A DNA stretch of 64,000 bases from a virus, in IMG/VR virus record IMGVR_UViG_3300042446_001168, one strand, 5' to 3'. The translations under genes and the position numbers were made by a program. Shown piece by piece: positions 9 through 26,818 of this stretch (positions within the stretch are counted from its first letter, which is position 1; each line of letters starts with the position of its first letter). A model generated the notes under the pieces. It was given only the letters and a program-made list of their open reading frames with translations, did not search any database and was not told the origin of the DNA.

Positions 9-1412
9 ATGAAAAAAATTACTATTATATCACTCTTAGCACTATGCTTTGCGTCACCTGCAATGGCAGATGATTACACAGACACCTTGGATATTCTTTT
101 GCAAAAAGGAATATTAACCAAGGAAGAACATTATAGAAAAGTTACCGCGCACGAGGACAAAGCAGAAAATGTACAGTTTAATTCTTCTCGCGTGGACAAA
201 GACCTGCGAGACAACAACAACTACAGACTAAGTAAAGCCAGTGATGGTGCTGTAATGGAAAACGGACTAGGAATCAAATCCAAGGACGGAAATACCACTG
301 CACAATTCACAGGTAGAATTCATATGGATTATAGAAGTTATAGTCCAGTCTACGGTGCAGGTCAAACCACAGATTCATATCAAGATGCATTAGAAGTTAG
401 ACGTGGTCGCTTTGGAGTCAGAGGACAGATTGCCAAAGACTTCAAATACCAATTGTTAGCAAACTTTGGAAATGATGTTGGTGCAAGTTCCACTACATCC
501 ACAATTGATGAGTTCTGGGTCAATTATGCAGCCAATCCTGTAATGCAACTTCAGTTTGGTACTTTCAAAATGCCGTTTAGTCTAGAACAATTGACTAGCT
601 CCAACAACATTGACTTTATGGAGCGTAGCCTAATTGGACAAACTGAAGGTGAGTTTATTCCAGCTAAAGAAACAGGCATTATGTTGCATGGTGTGCCTAG
701 GGCAGGTATAACATATGCCCTGGCTGCAAGTCGTGGTCGTGCCAACAAGACTGCCACTGTAGATGGTGTAGATATCATTGGACGTGTGACCACAAACTTT
801 GCTGAGTTGATTCAGAACAAAGACTTTGTGGCTCATTTGGGTGCAGCATACAGTACTGGTGATGTAAAGACTGGAGTAACTCCTTCCAGTGGTCGTACTG
901 AAGCTCGTCAACAAAGTGCTTGGTTCACAGGGCCAGCTCTAAGTGGCGATACTGCAAGAACACGCCAAGGTATTGAGGCAGCGTTTGCTTGGAAAGGATT
1001 GAAAGTACAGGGAGAACAATTTAATTACAAATATGACCTGGCTACAGGATCCAATCAAGAAGTAAAAGGTAACTATGTTCAGTTGGTATACAATTTAACT
1101 GGAGAAAGTCACGTTTACAAAGATGGTACATTTGGTTGGATTAAACCAAACAACGCATTTACCAGTGGTGGTCCCGGAGCATGGCAAGTAGGTATCAGAT
1201 CCAGTGAGTTTGATGCTGAAAGCATTGCTGTAGTAGCAGGTAAAGCGAATCAAGCCACAGCAATGACATACGGTATTACTTGGTTCTTGAATGACAATGT
1301 TCGATTCATGGTCAATTATGTAGATACTAAATTCAATGCCCCAGTGGGTGCGTCAGGCAGTAGAGTAACTGGTGAAAAAGCAGTTATGTTAAGAAGTCAA
1401 ATAAGCTTCTAA
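9..1412 (+). CDS. oprP: Phosphate-selective porin, OprO/OprP family (auxiliary metabolic gene)
   Basis: Signal peptide; GRIHMDY, RRGRFGVRG, GTFKMPFSLEQLTSSNNIDFMERS and GAWQVGIRSS motifs typical of Porin_O_P; C-terminal Phe of an outer-membrane beta-barrel. Confidence 0.88.
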   Translation: MKKITIISLLALCFASPAMADDYTDTLDILLQKGILTKEEHYRKVTAHEDKAENVQFNSSRVDKDLRDNNNYRLSKASDGAVMENGLGIKSKDGNTTAQFTGRIHMDYRSYSPVYGAGQTTDSYQDALEVRRGRFGVRGQIAKDFKYQLLANFGNDVGASSTTSTIDEFWVNYAANPVMQLQFGTFKMPFSLEQLTSSNNIDFMERSLIGQTEGEFIPAKETGIMLHGVPRAGITYALAASRGRANKTATVDGVDIIGRVTTNFAELIQNKDFVAHLGAAYSTGDVKTGVTPSSGRTEARQQSAWFTGPALSGDTARTRQGIEAAFAWKGLKVQGEQFNYKYDLATGSNQEVKGNYVQLVYNLTGESHVYKDGTFGWIKPNNAFTSGGPGAWQVGIRSSEFDAESIAVVAGKANQATAMTYGITWFLNDNVRFMVNYVDTKFNAPVGASGSRVTGEKAVMLRSQISF

Positions 1413-21976: not shown

Positions 21977-22306
21977 ATGATTACCCTTACTAAAGCAGCA
22001 CAGGATATGGTGGCTAACATCCTGGCCAAAGAATCCGATGGAAGCGCAGCCCTTCGCCTCTCCGTCCAAGGAGGCGGATGCTCTGGATTCTCCTACTCCT
22101 TTGCACTCGACGATACCCAAGAAGAGGACGACTTCGTGGTACCCAATGACCAATTTAAATTCTGGGTCGACGCCATATCAATGCAATACCTAACCGGATC
22201 TGTGGTAGAGTACGAAAGTACCCTTACTGGCGGACAGTTTAAAGTGAGCAACCCCAACGTCACCGCTACCTGCGGATGCGGAAGCAGCTTTACTATGAAG
22301 GAATAA
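21977..22306 (+). CDS. erpA: A-type Fe-S carrier, IscA/ErpA (HesB family) (auxiliary metabolic gene)
   Basis: LRLSVQGGGCSGFSY, VDAISMQYLTG, NPNVTATCGCGSSF; three conserved Cys. Confidence 0.92.
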   Translation: MITLTKAAQDMVANILAKESDGSAALRLSVQGGGCSGFSYSFALDDTQEEDDFVVPNDQFKFWVDAISMQYLTGSVVEYESTLTGGQFKVSNPNVTATCGCGSSFTMKE

Positions 22307-22328
22307 CCACCCCCGGCAGAAATATCTG

Positions 22329-22357
22329 TTGACTTAATATCGTTTTATGTTGAGAAT
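22329..22357 (+). promoter_or_regulatory. Early promoter
   Basis: TTGACT-17 bp-GAGAAT; downstream GACTTTGTAGTGAG shared with the 10674 promoter. Confidence 0.75.
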
Positions 22358-22407
22358 AGACTTTGTAGTGAGGTTGATATTAATGAATTCTACTTGGAGA
22401 TTATATT

Positions 22408-23367
22408 ATGGCACATTTAGTTGAAACAATGGCGTACGCAGGCGAAACCCCTTGGCACGGTCTTGGCAAAGAAGTCCCAGCAGACCTGTCCCCAGCACAA
22501 ATGCTCGAATCAGCAGGCCTTGACTGGTCAGTAGATAAGATTCAAACCTTTGCAAACATCCAAGGACAACAAGTGTATACCGGCAAAGATGCCCTGGTAC
22601 GCTCGTCTGATGGCCGTATCCTGGATGTAGTGTCGCAAGATTGGAACCCCCTGCAGAATGAAGAAGCATTCGAGTTCTTCAATGACTTCGTTTGCTCGGG
22701 TGATATGGCCATGCATACGGCAGGATCCCTTAAAAACGGCCAGATTGTATGGGCTCTTGCTAAGATTAATGAGTCTTTTGAGGTTTTTGGTGGGGATCAG
22801 GTCGATTCCTACCTTCTTTTTACACTCCCCCACAAGTTTGGTCAGTCAATCGACGTGCGATTCACTCCAATTCGCGTGGTTTGCAATAATACCCTCACGC
22901 TGTCACTCTCTTCTAAAGAAGATAACATGGTAAAAGTGTCCCATCGCCGCCAGTTTGATGGCGATCAGGTGAAGCAGATGCTGGGTGTTGCCTCTGATAA
23001 GCTGGCACAGTACAAGGAAATGGCTAAATTCTTGGGTTCTAAGAAATATAAGAGCGAGACAGTCAAGGAATACTTCAATCGTATCTTCCCTGTCAATGCA
23101 TATGGCCGCTCTAAGAACGAAGAAACTAAGCAAAAGAAGGAATTGTCCCAGTCAGCTACTCTTGCAATGCAAGCACTGCAACAGCAACCTGGTGCATCGT
23201 TTGCTGAAGGTTCGTGGTGGTCAGCATTCAACGCTGTAACCTACCTAACTGACCACGTTATTGGCCGTACACAGGAAGGTCGCCTTACATCAGCCTGGTA
23301 TGGTCCTAATAAAGGCCTCAAAGTAAAAGCTCTTGAGACAGCCGTTGCAATGGCAGAGATGGCATAA
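22408..23367 (+). CDS. DUF932 family (phage/plasmid-like protein)
   Basis: MAHLVETMAY..ETPWHGLG, PLQNEEAF, TAGSL, TPIRVVCNNTL, WSAFNAVT motifs. Confidence 0.9.
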   Translation: MAHLVETMAYAGETPWHGLGKEVPADLSPAQMLESAGLDWSVDKIQTFANIQGQQVYTGKDALVRSSDGRILDVVSQDWNPLQNEEAFEFFNDFVCSGDMAMHTAGSLKNGQIVWALAKINESFEVFGGDQVDSYLLFTLPHKFGQSIDVRFTPIRVVCNNTLTLSLSSKEDNMVKVSHRRQFDGDQVKQMLGVASDKLAQYKEMAKFLGSKKYKSETVKEYFNRIFPVNAYGRSKNEETKQKKELSQSATLAMQALQQQPGASFAEGSWWSAFNAVTYLTDHVIGRTQEGRLTSAWYGPNKGLKVKALETAVAMAEMA

Positions 23368-23368
23368 T

Positions 23369-23647
23369 ATGAGCAAAGTTACTTGTCAAGTGTGCAAACA
23401 ACTCATCCCTGACGGTACTTTGCTGTGTACCAACTGCCAAGGCAGTCCTCCACCTTGGCAGTGGCCTACCAGCCCCCCAGAACCTGAATCAGATGATGAT
23501 AGCCTGGGATTATTTGGATGGTTCGTATGCATCGTGGTAGGAATGTTCTTACTTGGTTCATTACTTGGATGTGGTACAGTCGGTGGCACCGTATCTGGTG
23601 CCGGTAAGGATCTCTCTAAACTTGGTGAATGGATTACACAAAAATGA
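23369..23647 (+). CDS. Zinc-ribbon plus TM plus entericidin-like lipoprotein segment
   Basis: CQVC..CTNC, TM helix, LLGCGTVGGTVSGAGKDL. Confidence 0.6.
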   Translation: MSKVTCQVCKQLIPDGTLLCTNCQGSPPPWQWPTSPPEPESDDDSLGLFGWFVCIVVGMFLLGSLLGCGTVGGTVSGAGKDLSKLGEWITQK

Positions 23648-23811
23648 AACAACCTGACGCTAAACGACACTTTCAAGTTAGCCTAGCCAAAAGCTTTATG
23701 AGATTAGCAGCAGCTACCTGTCTTATGCTAACTAGTGATGTATTCTTGCTGTCGGCCGGCTTTGCTCTGGCCGTAGCAGAAGTGCTTGGAGTAATTGAAG
23801 AACTGGTGTAG
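23644..23811 (+). CDS. Small membrane protein
   Basis: HFQVSLAKSFMR...AEVLGVIEELV. Confidence 0.7.
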   Translation: MKQPDAKRHFQVSLAKSFMRLAAATCLMLTSDVFLLSAGFALAVAEVLGVIEELV

Positions 23812-23918
23812 AATATGGTAATACAACGTACATGGGTTTGAGGATTATCACTACACAGAACACCACGTATATGGTATACATATAACAGGCAATAGTGCCT
23901 CTACTCTAGGAGATTTAA

Positions 23919-23993
23919 ATGAATTGGACTACACCAGCAGCAACAGATCTGCGTTTTGGCTTTGAAATCACAATGTACATTGCTAATCGCTAA
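23919..23993 (+). CDS. pqqA: Pyrroloquinoline quinone precursor peptide PqqA
   Basis: MNWTTPAATDLRFGFEITMYIANR*: W..P...D.RFGFE.TMY with the ExxxY core; AGGAGA RBS at 23908-23913. Confidence 0.95.
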   Translation: MNWTTPAATDLRFGFEITMYIANR

Positions 23994-24010
23994 ATAGTAA
24001 TTGTAGTAAA

Positions 24011-24300
24011 GAATTGTTGTAATCCCTTCAAAGCGAAGGCATGTTGGACGAGGGTTCGATTCCCTCCATCTCCACCAGAAACATATTGCGATGCTGTTCC
24101 GCGGCAGCGACCATAAAGAGAGTAGTGTGTTTCTGATGGGGATGACCTGGTTTCGACAGCGTGAGATAGTAGAGACGGCAACACAGTAGGCGATGACTGT
24201 AAATCAAGCAAAAACCATAAACGCAAACGATAATAAGTACGCGCTGGCAGCTTAAACACTGACCGGAGTCTGACCTGCACTTGGCAACAGAAGCAGGTCC
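24011..24300 (+). ncRNA. ssrA: Circularly permuted (two-piece) tmRNA
   Basis: Acceptor piece ends T-arm GAGGG-TTCGATT-CCCTC, CATCTCC-A-CCA (24077); intervening hairpin; coding piece starts GGGGATG (24138) giving G3:U70; tag ANDNKYALAA* at 24223-24255; terminal hairpin 24272-24299. Outer ends approximate. Confidence 0.93.
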
Positions 24301-24313
24301 CAAATTCCTCAGA

Positions 24314-24321
24314 CATAAATA
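24314..24321 (+). promoter_or_regulatory. Putative T4-type late promoter
   Basis: CATAAATA (T4 consensus TATAAATA); genome encodes gp33. Confidence 0.5.
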
Positions 24322-24463
24322 CTACTATCTACAATAGGGTCTACGGCCCAGTTCGCAATTGGCAGCACTTGATAAGGATGACATTGTGACCATCAATATT
24401 CAGTATACTGAAAGTTGTATTCCTACGTATCAAAATAATAAAATAAACAAAGAGGTAGTCAAC

Positions 24464-24991
24464 ATGAAAAAGCTAGTGCTTACTACACTTCTTGGTCTGT
24501 GCTCACTCGCATTCGCCTGCAATAACGTAGAAGACAATGTCTCTGCGGAAACGCCTCATACGGTGGCCCGTATATCGGAAAAGCAGCTAGAGTGCCTTGC
24601 CAAGAATATGTACTTCGAAGCCAAGAACGAACCCGATATGGGTATCAAGGCTGTTGGGTTTGTAACTATGAATAGAGTTGCGGATGCAGCCTTTCCTAAA
24701 ACTATTTGCGGTGTTGTGTATCAGCGAGAGGGTAGTGTATGCCAGTTCTCCTGGGTCTGCCAGAAGGGCAGGGGTCCTGCCATTAACAACCAAGACCAAT
24801 ATCAGCACATTAAAAATATGGCTAGAGAAATAGCCGAGCATCATAACACCAGTAAGAGATACGACCCAACTAAGGGATCTTTGTTCTTTCATGCTGCGTA
24901 TATTAATCCCCGTTGGAAGCTACATAGAAATATAAAGATCGGGCAGCACATTTTTTACTCTAGGAAAAAAAAGCATGATCACAGACCTTAA
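24464..24991 (+). CDS. SleB/CwlJ-like cell wall hydrolase (Hydrolase_2)
   Basis: CLAKNMYFEA, V.MNRV...FPKTICGVVYQ, CQFSW, FFHA.YINPRW, IGQHIFY motifs; signal peptide. Confidence 0.9.
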   Translation: MKKLVLTTLLGLCSLAFACNNVEDNVSAETPHTVARISEKQLECLAKNMYFEAKNEPDMGIKAVGFVTMNRVADAAFPKTICGVVYQREGSVCQFSWVCQKGRGPAINNQDQYQHIKNMAREIAEHHNTSKRYDPTKGSLFFHAAYINPRWKLHRNIKIGQHIFYSRKKKHDHRP

Positions 24992-25211
24992 TTTTAGTAG
25001 TATAGTTGAATTCTCGAAAGAGATTGAAACACTTGTCTTAGAAAAGAAAATGGAGTATATTGATGCGGTAGTATATTTTTGTGAGAAGAATGGGGTAGAT
25101 ATTGAAACTGCGGCATCTCTTATTAAAAATAATTCCAAACTCAAAGCATCTATTCAGGATGAAGCAGAGCATCTCAACTATCTACCTAAAACCCAGAAAC
25201 TACCTATATGA
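24975..25211 (+). CDS. 33: Late transcription co-activator gp33
   Basis: FSKEIE, YIDAVVYFCE..G.DIE, LK..IQ.EA..LNYL; synteny 33-59-32. Confidence 0.88.
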   Translation: MITDLNFSSIVEFSKEIETLVLEKKMEYIDAVVYFCEKNGVDIETAASLIKNNSKLKASIQDEAEHLNYLPKTQKLPI

Positions 25212-25783
25212 CAGACTACGAAGCGTATAAGATGTACTGTGCTCTGAAAAGGCACTTCCAATCAGATACGTACGACTACTTTAAATACAACGGCAAGGTC
25301 AGAGCAAGCTATGCATCGTTTGAGAAGAGGTCTGATAGATACTTTTTTACTAAGTTATCAAAACATAAAGATATTGAAGGGTTCCTAGTAGCTAACCTCT
25401 GCGGAGGAGACAAATGGGTCGGAGACCTTGTCAACGAGCAGGCAGCAGAGAAGCAATACACCGAGTGGCTGAAACGTAAGCAATCCCTGTCATACACGTT
25501 CAAAAACGATATTGACAAGGTAGAGGAAGTAAAGGAGATGTCCGTAGTAGATGGTCAACATCCAAAGTTGTTTAAACGATATCTATCCAAAGATATCTGT
25601 GCAGAGACCATTATCATTGTGAACAAGATCCAAAAAGGGTTCATGTTCAAGTATTGGGATTCAAAGTTGTCGGATCCTGTGTGGCGGCAGGAAAAGGTAA
25701 AATTGGAGAAGTTAACTCCATTTCTTCAGTACGAGGAAGATAAATACCGCAGTATACTTGTGGAACGAAAGTTGGCAGTTTAA
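25208..25783 (+). CDS. 59: Helicase loader gp59
   Basis: YKMYCALKRHF..DTYDYFKYNGK, FEKRSDRYFFTKL. Confidence 0.92.
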   Translation: MTDYEAYKMYCALKRHFQSDTYDYFKYNGKVRASYASFEKRSDRYFFTKLSKHKDIEGFLVANLCGGDKWVGDLVNEQAAEKQYTEWLKRKQSLSYTFKNDIDKVEEVKEMSVVDGQHPKLFKRYLSKDICAETIIIVNKIQKGFMFKYWDSKLSDPVWRQEKVKLEKLTPFLQYEEDKYRSILVERKLAV

Positions 25784-25786
25784 CTG

Positions 25787-25815
25787 TTGCCTTAATTAGC
25801 TACACAGGGTATACT
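25787..25815 (+). promoter_or_regulatory. sigma70-type promoter for gene 32
   Basis: TTGCCT-17 bp-TATACT, same TGTTG.CTTAAT context as the early promoters. Confidence 0.75.
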
Positions 25816-25882
25816 ATCTTTATTATTGGTTAGGTGGACAAACTAATATACTATCATACGTTTACACATAAAGGAAAATACG

Positions 25883-26818
25883 ATGTCAAGTTTTGCAAAT
25901 CTCAAAATGTCTACTAAGACAAGTCTCGATAAGATCACCCAACAAGTATCCAAGTTAGCAAATCCGGAGGGCAATCCCCGCGAGCCAGACACACGCTTCT
26001 GGCAGCCTGCTGTTGATAAGTCAGGTAACGGATATGCTGTTATTCGCTTCCTCCCTGCTCCAGATGGAGAAGATGTCCCATTCGTACGTATCTTTAACCA
26101 TGGCTTCAAAGGTCCTGGTGGTCAATGGTATATTGAGAACTCTCTCACTACTGTTGGCAAAGCTGATCCCGTATCAGAGTATAATAGTCAACTGTGGGCC
26201 ACCGGTATTGAAGCAAACAAAGCTCAAGTACGCGCACAGAAGCGTAAGCTCAACTTTATCAGCAACATCTATGTTGTTAGCGATAAAGCTAATCCTCAGA
26301 ACGAAGGTAAGGTGTTCTTGTTTAAGTATGGCAAGAAAATCTTTGATATTCTGAACGCATCAATGAACCCTGAGTTTGAAGATGAGAAGCCAGTCAATCC
26401 TTTTGACTTTTGGGCTGGTGCCAACTTCAAGCTGAAGATTCGTAATGTGGAAGGATATCGTAACTACGATAAGTCTGAGTTTGATGCTCCAGCCCCGCTG
26501 TTGGATGACGACAGTGAACTTGAAAGTATCTGGAAGCAAGAGAATTCACTCAAAGAATTCTTGGATGACAAGCACTTCAAGAGCTATGATGAGTTGAAGC
26601 AGAAGCTCTATCGTGTGCTGGCTTTGGATGGTGGAGCTCCGCGTCAATCACAGAACATTGCTGATCGTACGATTGATGATGGTGAGACGTTTGAGCAGGT
26701 AGCCAAGCCTGCTAAGGTAGCTAGTGTGGCTGCTAAACCACAGGCTAAAGCGCCTTGGGATGCAGACGAGGATGATGACGATATTGCAGCATTCAAGTCG
26801 CTAATCAACGACGACTAA
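25883..26818 (+). CDS. 32: Single-stranded DNA-binding protein gp32
   Basis: DKSGNGYAVIRFLP, WYIENSLTT, FKYGKKIFD, NPFDFWAGANFKLKIR, YDKSEF, acidic tail. Confidence 0.96.
   Translation: MSSFANLKMSTKTSLDKITQQVSKLANPEGNPREPDTRFWQPAVDKSGNGYAVIRFLPAPDGEDVPFVRIFNHGFKGPGGQWYIENSLTTVGKADPVSEYNSQLWATGIEANKAQVRAQKRKLNFISNIYVVSDKANPQNEGKVFLFKYGKKIFDILNASMNPEFEDEKPVNPFDFWAGANFKLKIRNVEGYRNYDKSEFDAPAPLLDDDSELESIWKQENSLKEFLDDKHFKSYDELKQKLYRVLALDGGAPRQSQNIADRTIDDGETFEQVAKPAKVASVAAKPQAKAPWDADEDDDDIAAFKSLINDD

What the first reader, a model, noticed from the sequence alone, without database searches (positions are those of the whole stretch)
23887..23993. Phage-encoded PqqA, the peptide precursor of the redox cofactor PQQ
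Seen: a 24-aa ORF missed by the ORF track, MNWTTPAATDLRFGFEITMYIANR, with a strong RBS and a small upstream hairpin (AGGCA-ATAG-TGCCT); no pqqB-E in the window. Established: PQQ is made from the Glu and Tyr of the ExxxY motif, one PqqA per PQQ, and serves periplasmic methanol/alcohol/sugar dehydrogenases. Inference: the phage supplies the stoichiometric substrate of a host RiPP-type pathway to keep periplasmic oxidation and energy supply running; this points to a PQQ-using (possibly methylotrophic) Betaproteobacterial host. PQQ genes may already have been seen in aquatic viromes, so novelty needs checking.
Basis: partly seen in the sequence, partly recalled or inferred. Interest (0 to 1): 0.82.

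Follow-up and report, generated by a model that had tools for sequence, protein, structure and literature searches.

The report
Phage copy of PQQ precursor gene
A lake-water T4-like phage carries an intact 24-codon copy of pqqA, the peptide that bacteria use up to make the cofactor PQQ. The gene is real and conserved, but phage pqqA was published in 2020, so what is new here is only that this copy points to a non-methylotrophic Burkholderiales host.

Summary
The ORF at 23919-23993 (+) is present as described. It is a genuine PqqA: Pfam PF08042 scores 40.1 bits (cut-off 21.1) and TIGR02107 scores 39.6 bits (cut-off 20). The ExxxY motif is intact and an AGGAG sits 6 nt before the ATG. The "upstream hairpin" exists but folds no better than shuffled sequence.

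The gene stands alone among T4-like genes (gp59, gp32, gp5, gp6). No pqqB-E or quinoprotein gene was found in the window. It lies about 20 nt upstream of a permuted tmRNA.

Standalone pqqA is widespread in viruses. At least 587 IMG/VR loci carry one, and so does every Methylophilales-phage record that the GenBank phage search returned, mostly unannotated. Viral copies are under purifying selection (dN/dS about 0.1).

Viral PqqA was already reported from T4-like Methylophilaceae phages of Lake Baikal (Coutinho 2020). This scan has also flagged phage pqqA many times on other DNA.

This allele is not the Methylophilaceae type (0 of 201 genomes). It is identical in protein to the single orphan pqqA of a small clade of freshwater Burkholderiales MAGs. 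That clade also gives the best match to the phage's porin gene, and its sampled quinoproteins resemble ethanol dehydrogenases most.

Most likely this is an auxiliary gene that resupplies the consumed PQQ precursor. Expression and processing are untested.

The parts
23919..23993 (+). pqqA coding sequence: 24 codons plus TAA. Glu16 is at 23964-23966 and Tyr20 at 23976-23978 (the ExxxY cross-link pair).
   Evidence: Identical in protein, and 86-89% in DNA, to orphan pqqA genes of Burkholderiales MAGs.
23908..23912 (+). Shine-Dalgarno AGGAG, 6 nt before the ATG. The 'ctaggagat' context is shared with the bacterial orphan copies.
   Evidence: The DNA similarity to L088/L090 starts at 23904.
23887..23900 (+). 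It is not significant and probably not a functional part.
   Evidence: z = -0.34.
22327..22357 (+). Nearest upstream promoter-like site: an exact copy of the repeated TGTTGACTTAAT motif, a 17-nt spacer, then GAGAAT. It is a candidate early promoter for the + strand run DUF932, two small ORFs, pqqA.
   Evidence: 7 exact copies in the window. No + strand terminator-like site in 23300-24500. That it drives pqqA is inference.
23990..23996 (+). CTAAATA, a late-promoter-like motif overlapping the pqqA stop codon, about 20 nt before the tmRNA. The same motif precedes the tmRNA of relative L031 (2827-2833).
   Evidence: read. Function not tested.
24015..24311 (+). Neighbouring permuted (two-piece) tmRNA with tag ANDNKYALAA. 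It is a separate gene that shares this intergenic hub with pqqA.
   Evidence: ARAGORN 23985-24346. RF01850 at 158.2 bits and RF04321 at 151.6 bits.

Best explanation
The ORF is a functional phage-borne pqqA, an auxiliary metabolic gene. It was captured, with its ribosome-binding site, from the chromosome of a freshwater Burkholderiales host in which pqqA is a single orphan gene unlinked to pqqBCDE. During infection the phage makes the 24-aa peptide. The host's PqqD/PqqE then cross-link Glu16 to Tyr20, and the later Pqq enzymes turn it into PQQ, consuming one peptide per cofactor. PqqA is the only stoichiometric, rapidly consumed input of the pathway, and a T4-like phage is expected to shut down host transcription. 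A phage copy would therefore keep PQQ, and with it the periplasmic PQQ-dependent alcohol dehydrogenases and respiratory energy supply, going until lysis. This is the same logic as cyanophage psbA. Shown here: identity as PqqA, phage context, absence of pqqB-E from the window, wide conservation and purifying selection in viruses, and presence of pqqC, pqqE and quinoproteins in the candidate host clade. Inferred: expression (probably by read-through from the early-type promoter at 22327), processing by host enzymes, benefit to the phage, and host identity.
For: - HMM membership is above the curated cut-offs.
- All residues invariant across phage and bacterial copies are present: W3, T4, P6, R12, G14, F15, E16, T18, M19, Y20.
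- The gene has a canonical SD and ATG.
- It lies among T4-like genes.
- The hub pqqA / tmRNA / cell-wall hydrolase / 78-aa ORF / gp59 / gp32 recurs in 13 IMG/VR loci. The closest, L031, has DUF932 at 81% and gp59 at 74% identity.
- At least 587 IMG/VR loci encode a PqqA relative. All 80 kept loci have an intact ORF and none has pqqB-E within 6 kb.
- Among 81 viral copies pS is 0.65, pN is 0.14 and dN/dS is about 0.1. E, Y, P, R, G and T are invariant while all their synonymous codons are used.
- Intact pqqA ORFs, mostly unannotated, are in Melnitz (4 isolates), Venkman, MEP301, MEP401/402, P19250A and a spring podovirus.
- The window allele is 100% identical in protein, and 86-89% in DNA including the SD, to orphan pqqA of Burkholderiales MAGs.
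- The candidate hosts have pqqC and pqqE elsewhere in the genome and 3-4 PQQ alcohol-dehydrogenase family matches each.
- Every one of 201 sampled Methylophilaceae genomes carries pqqA-type cores, mostly in 2-12 copies. This suggests that precursor dosage matters where PQQ demand is high.
- The same reading was published for Baikal phages (PMC7678222).
Against: - There is no direct evidence that this copy is transcribed or translated. Metatranscriptome contigs overlapping the ORF are only 90-95% alike and run on into unlike sequence, so they are other organisms' pqqA.
- No promoter of its own was found.
- The selection estimate is biased, because the 80 loci were chosen by peptide similarity.
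- The rest of the phage genome could not be searched, so 'no pqqB-E' holds for this window only.
- Whether PqqA is limiting in an infected cell is unknown.
- The host assignment rests on two genes: a 24-aa peptide and a porin at about 50% identity.
Confidence: 0.7

Rival explanations
1. Neutral passenger. A 90-nt piece of host DNA (SD plus pqqA) was recently picked up in a recombination-prone hub of small genes and RNA genes, and it does nothing for the phage.
For: The similarity to host DNA is confined to about 90 nt and is high, at 86-89%. The position of pqqA relative to the tmRNA differs between the window and its relatives, which suggests turnover at this hub. 24 of 80 viral copies lie within 6 kb of tRNA or tmRNA genes, regions known for gene flux.
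Against: All 80 sampled viral copies are intact and dN/dS is about 0.1. The gene recurs in several unrelated phage lineages and in at least 587 viral loci. The window copy has diverged 11-14% from the host DNA without a single amino-acid change.
Confidence: 0.13
2. Decoy or other peptide role. The phage peptide ties up PqqD/PqqE or another host factor, lowering rather than raising PQQ, or it has a PQQ-independent role.
For: Nothing specific. Processing was not tested, so the direction of the effect is unproven.
Against: The peptide is identical to the host's own substrate, including Glu16 and Tyr20. It should therefore be processed normally, whereas a decoy would be expected to lose the cross-linking residues. 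These residues are invariant in all 66 distinct viral sequences.
Confidence: 0.05
3. Cis-acting role for the tmRNA gene. The ORF is only the carrier of the tmRNA promoter or leader, or a leader ORF that couples translation to tmRNA precursor processing.
For: The pqqA stop codon overlaps a CTAAATA late-promoter-like motif about 20 nt before the tmRNA. Three relatives also have pqqA and tmRNA within 70 nt of each other.
Against: In all 11 related loci with a same-strand tmRNA, the tmRNA is upstream of pqqA by 52-4359 nt. L031 keeps CTAAATA before its tmRNA without pqqA there. Most viral pqqA copies have no tmRNA nearby. Conservation is at the protein level.
Confidence: 0.05
4. Assembly chimera or host contamination. 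The pqqA piece is not really part of the phage genome.
For: The protein is identical to a bacterial gene. The source record was not found in IMG/VR or in JGI metagenome contigs.
Against: Only about 90 nt resemble host DNA, and at 86-89%, not 100%. Both flanks are phage DNA. Related phage contigs carry pqqA in the same hub.
Confidence: 0.02

Closest known systems
Virus-encoded PqqA of T4-like Methylophilaceae phages from Lake Baikal (population VP_266; Coutinho et al. 2020, Microbiome 8:163, PMC7678222)
   Same: A freshwater T4-like phage carries the PqqA precursor peptide without the rest of the pathway, read as an auxiliary gene that boosts PQQ-dependent alcohol oxidation.
   Different: The Baikal phages were assigned to Methylophilaceae and also carry a methanol dehydrogenase, with about 35% GC. 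This window has 41% GC and no dehydrogenase gene, and its allele type was not found in 201 Methylophilaceae genomes. I could not compare the sequences directly.
Mostly unannotated pqqA ORFs of cultured Methylophilales phages (Melnitz, Venkman, MEP301, MEP401/402, P19250A)
   Same: A standalone 23-24 codon pqqA with SD and ATG and an intact ExxxY. In Melnitz, also a T4-like (Kyanoviridae) phage, it lies next to a tRNA gene.
   Different: They are 59-73% identical to the window peptide and of the 'EVTMYV' Methylophilaceae type. The Melnitz and MEP401/402 papers do not mention pqqA.
Orphan chromosomal pqqA of freshwater Burkholderiales MAGs (e.g. 'Oxalobacteraceae bacterium MsE-6', handle G001)
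   Same: 100% protein identity and 86-89% DNA identity including the SD. It is a single copy unlinked to pqqBCDE.
   Different: It is chromosomal, at 49% GC, flanked by a MoxY-like sensor kinase, a LuxR-type regulator, a P450 and RmuC, not by phage genes.
Cyanophage psbA (D1 protein): works alike, not a family member
   Same: The phage carries only the fast-turnover component of a host energy system, so that the system outlasts host shut-off. This comparison rests on my own knowledge, not on a tool result.
   Different: A different protein and pathway. For pqqA the turnover argument is inferred, not measured.

Membership tests
PqqA (PF08042 / TIGR02107) | Profile match above the curated cut-off | tested here: met
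   40.1 bits against 21.1; 39.6 bits against 20, an equivalog model.
PqqA (PF08042 / TIGR02107) | Glu-X-X-X-Tyr pair that becomes PQQ | tested here: met
   E16-I-T-M-Y20, read. Invariant in alignment A1 and in 66 distinct viral sequences.
PqqA (PF08042 / TIGR02107) | Short ribosomal peptide (about 20-40 aa) with its own start codon and RBS | tested here: met
   24 aa, ATG, AGGAG at -11 to -7.
PqqA (PF08042 / TIGR02107) | Genomic link to pqqBCDE | tested here: not met
   None in the window. This is also true of the identical bacterial copy, which sits on a different contig from pqqC/pqqE. Orphan copies are therefore a normal state of the family.
PqqA (PF08042 / TIGR02107) | Bound by PqqD, cross-linked by PqqE and converted to PQQ | not testable with these tools
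   No assay is possible. The peptide is below the 30-residue minimum of complex prediction, so no job was sent.
Phage auxiliary metabolic gene | Encoded inside a bona fide phage genome, not at a host junction | tested here: met
   T4-like genes lie on both sides. The synteny is shared with viral contigs.
Phage auxiliary metabolic gene | Host-derived metabolic gene kept under selection in phages | tested here: met
   Identical host allele. dN/dS is about 0.1 among viral copies, with an ascertainment caveat.
Phage auxiliary metabolic gene | Expressed during infection and altering host metabolism | tested here: inconclusive
   RNA-library contigs over the ORF belong to other organisms. Low-depth near-identical pieces of neighbouring genes could be DNA carry-over.

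The most novel reading that the evidence does not exclude
Phage pqqA is not a speciality of methylotroph phages. Related T4-like lake phages carry whichever pqqA allele their own host uses. This phage took the single orphan allele of a non-methylotrophic Burkholderiales clade that runs PedH/ExaA-like alcohol dehydrogenases. Resupplying the PQQ precursor would then be a general phage strategy against any PQQ-dependent host, and the allele could serve as a host marker. pqqA may also be expressed together with the permuted tmRNA from one small hub.
Probability: 0.4. Interest if true: 0.45.

Novelty: new member of a known kind. Interest (0 to 1): 0.3.

Why it matters
A phage copy shows which step of a cofactor pathway runs short in an infected cell. 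It is also a simple, testable case of a virus feeding a RiPP-type pathway of its host. Because gene callers skip 24-codon ORFs, the gene is mostly unannotated in cultured phage genomes. Annotation pipelines and surveys of auxiliary metabolic genes therefore undercount it. The allele type may help to assign hosts to uncultured lake phages. As a discovery it is incremental: the kind has been published since 2020.

Tried and rejected
- **Expression.** Four metatranscriptome runs were laid on 22400-26800. Contigs touching the ORF are 90-95% alike and continue into unlike sequence, so they are other organisms' pqqA. Contigs cannot show starts, ends or levels, so this gives no verdict on expression.
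- **Hairpin at 23887-23900.** At chance level.
- **Source contig.** The exact 75-nt ORF was not found in IMG/VR or in JGI metagenome contigs. No whole genome is held for the window, so the rest of the phage could not be searched for pqqB-E or dehydrogenases. Earlier scan notes on the other three windows mention none, which is not evidence of absence.
- **Host markers.** DUF4337 (27-32% identity) and the IscA-like protein (43-45% in all five genomes) do not discriminate between candidate hosts.
- **tmRNA as host marker.** RF01850 does not reach its gathering score in G001-G004. The permuted tmRNA therefore looks like a feature of the phage lineage rather than a copy of a host gene.
- **Phosphate-solubilisation reading (pqq plus gcd, as in PMC13188868).** No membrane glucose dehydrogenase scores above the cut-off in five genomes of the candidate host clade. 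This reading was rejected for this phage, although the window does carry a phosphate-selective porin.
- **'Acinetobacter phage MD-2021a' hits.** These are a bacterial ppk-pqqABCDE region, not a phage pqqA.
- **Complex prediction.** Not used, because the peptide is shorter than the 30 residues the tool asks for.

Full report
**Observation**

The + strand of the window carries an ATG-to-TAA ORF of 24 codons at 23919-23993. AGGAG lies at 23908-23912, six bases before the start codon.

The peptide matches both curated PqqA models well above their cut-offs:
- Pfam PF08042: 40.1 bits against 21.1, E 3.4e-10.
- NCBIfam equivalog TIGR02107: 39.6 bits against 20.

Glu16 and Tyr20, the pair that becomes PQQ, are present.

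The small hairpin at 23887-23900 exists, but the region folds no better than shuffled sequence (z = -0.34; 70 of 200 shuffles fold as well). I do not count it as a feature.

**Context**

The window is a T4-like myophage. Identified genes are:
- gp59 (25208-25783) and gp32 (25883-26818);
- a gp5-type tail lysozyme, T4 baseplate proteins, gp6, gp53 and gp8;
- RNase H and a segE-type endonuclease.

GC content is 41%.

No pqqB, pqqC, pqqD, pqqE or PQQ-dependent dehydrogenase was found in the window. This rests on tblastn and on Pfam scans of 30 of the larger ORFs. No whole genome is held for the window, so this statement covers the 64 kb only.

About 20 nt downstream of pqqA lies a circularly permuted tmRNA with tag ANDNKYALAA:
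- ARAGORN.
- RF01850 at 158.2 bits and RF04321 at 151.6 bits.

A CTAAATA motif overlaps the pqqA stop codon. The same motif precedes the tmRNA of the closest relative, L031.

I found no promoter directly in front of pqqA. The nearest promoter-like site upstream on the same strand is an exact copy of the repeated TGTTGACTTAAT element at 22327. No + strand terminator-like site lies in 23300-24500, so read-through from that early-type promoter is plausible. It is not shown.

**Is it a real gene in phages?**

tblastn against GenBank phages found intact PqqA ORFs, each with ATG and an SD-like motif, in:
- four Melnitz isolates;
- Venkman, MEP301, MEP401, MEP402 and P19250A;
- a spring-water podovirus.

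In the five records whose annotation I inspected, no PqqA-strand gene is annotated there. Three have no feature at that place (P19250A, Venkman, MEP402). In Melnitz and the spring podovirus the only overlapping feature is a hypothetical CDS on the opposite strand.

The two 'Acinetobacter phage MD-2021a' hits are a bacterial ppk-pqqABCDE region.

Of the 80 kept:
- all have an intact ORF;
- none has pqqB-E within 6 kb;
- 13 share with the window at least part of the hub pqqA / cell-wall hydrolase / 78-aa ORF / gp59 / gp32.

Across 81 viral copies (66 distinct DNA sequences) synonymous sites are near saturation (pS 0.65) while pN is 0.14, giving dN/dS of about 0.1. E, Y, P, R, G and T are invariant although all their synonymous codons are used. 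The loci were chosen by peptide similarity, so this overstates constraint somewhat. Even so, it is hard to reconcile with a dead passenger.

**Position relative to RNA genes**

- 24 of the 80 viral loci have tRNA or tmRNA genes within the flanks, and 10 have one within 300 nt.
- In 11 loci a permuted tmRNA lies on the same strand upstream of pqqA, by 52-4359 nt.
- The window is the only case seen with pqqA upstream of the tmRNA.

The two genes therefore share a hub, but their order is not fixed. This argues against a cis role of the ORF for the tmRNA.

**Whose allele is it?**

A scan of one genome per prokaryote species found three records whose PqqA is 100% identical to the window peptide:
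- L089, an 'Oxalobacteraceae bacterium' MAG (handle G001);
- L090, a 'Burkholderiaceae bacterium' MAG;
- L088, a contig filed under Bifidobacterium that is probably misbinned.

DNA identity is 86-89% over about 90 nt, and it begins in the SD region.

G001 has one pqqA. It lies on a different contig from pqqC and pqqE, beside a MoxY-like sensor kinase, a LuxR-type regulator, a P450 and RmuC.

A second host-like gene points to the same clade. This is the phosphate-selective porin at 9-1412:
- G001 scores 51% identity and 459 bits, against 40% and 279 bits for the next best of 301 genomes sampled from the order.
- Within G001's family only 6 of 201 sampled genomes reach 48-52%.
- All six carry a PqqA identical to, or one to two residues from, the window peptide.

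The allele types separate the families cleanly:
- The back-translated window-type core GFEITMYIANR occurs in 0 of 201 sampled Methylophilaceae genomes.
- The GFEVTMYV core occurs in all 201 of those genomes, mostly in 2-12 copies.
- In G001's family the window-type core occurs once each in 18 of 101 sampled genomes. One of these, G379, is unpublished; without it the count is 17 of 100.

**What uses PQQ in that clade?**

- G001-G003 have three to four matches each to the methanol/ethanol family of PQQ dehydrogenases.
- By sequence against solved structures, G002's enzyme next to pqqE matches PedH-type ethanol dehydrogenase at 828 bits, against 371 bits for XoxF.
- G001's best enzyme scores 421 bits against PedH and 404 bits against XoxF-type.
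- No membrane glucose dehydrogenase scores above the cut-off.

The host is therefore a PQQ maker and user. Methylotrophy is not indicated.

**Mechanism**

The best-supported reading is an auxiliary gene that resupplies the one stoichiometric input of PQQ synthesis while host gene expression is shut off.
- Shown: identity, phage context, standalone state, conservation and selection in viruses, an identical host allele, and host possession of pqqC, pqqE and quinoproteins.
- Inferred: transcription, translation, processing, benefit and host identity.

The multi-copy state of pqqA in every sampled Methylophilaceae genome fits the idea that precursor dosage limits PQQ where demand is high.

The attempt to see expression failed. 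Metatranscriptome contigs over the ORF belong to other organisms.

**Comparison with what is known**

- Coutinho et al. 2020 (PMC7678222) described PqqA in a T4-like phage population of Lake Baikal assigned to Methylophilaceae, together with viral methanol dehydrogenase. They gave the same functional reading.
- A 2026 paper lists viral pqqA, pqqD and pqqE among phosphorus-cycling auxiliary genes (PMC13188868).
- The Melnitz and MEP401/402 papers do not mention pqqA.
- This scan has flagged phage pqqA on many other genomes: 164 notes in at least 109 genomes.

The kind is therefore known. The addition from this window is an allele and a porin that point to a non-Methylophilaceae, probably non-methylotrophic, Burkholderiales host, plus the reversed pqqA-tmRNA order.

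**Verdict**

This is a new member of a known kind, with interest 0.3.

Noticed in passing
window 23985-24346 (core 24015-24311): A permuted two-piece tmRNA with tag ANDNKYALAA (RF01850 158 bits, RF04321 152 bits). Candidate host genomes G001-G004 have no RF01850 match above the gathering score, so it looks like a feature of the phage lineage. CTAAATA precedes it here and in L031. It is already a separate finding of this scan.
   Followed up: partly
window 9-1412 (+): A phosphate-selective porin O/P gene (PF07396, 149 bits) in the phage. Its best bacterial matches, at about 50% identity, are in the same small Burkholderiales clade that has the identical PqqA.
   Followed up: partly
window 21977-22306 (+): An A-type iron-sulphur carrier (PF01521, IscA/ErpA-like) 1.6 kb upstream of pqqA. 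PqqE is an Fe-S radical-SAM enzyme, but any link is speculation. Identity to the bacterial copies in the five genomes searched is 43-45%.
   Followed up: partly
window 22327-22338 and six other sites: Seven exact copies of TGTTGACTTAAT in the window, each looking like an extended -35 of an early promoter.
   Followed up: partly
Methylophilaceae genomes (family of G004): All 201 sampled genomes carry the GFEVTMYV PqqA core, mostly in 2-12 copies per genome and often as tandem pairs about 200 nt apart.
   Followed up: partly
L001 3967-4075 (Melnitz MZ577097.1): The annotated hypothetical CDS MelnitzEXVC044M_152 lies on the opposite strand over the unannotated pqqA ORF. It is probably a miscall. 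pqqA is followed directly by tRNA-Leu.
   Followed up: no
L002 (CAKLQF020000010.1, 'Acinetobacter phage MD-2021a'): This record in the phage collection carries ppk and a full pqqABCDE operon. It looks like bacterial chromosome filed as phage.
   Followed up: no
L088 (CAYUDI010000075.1): An 11.9-kb contig binned as 'uncultured Bifidobacterium sp.' carries the Burkholderiales-type orphan pqqA at 49% GC. It is probably misbinned.
   Followed up: no
G483:C27 1425-3888: In one genome of the candidate host clade an orphan pqqA lies about 1.4 kb from a PQQ alcohol-dehydrogenase family gene.
   Followed up: no
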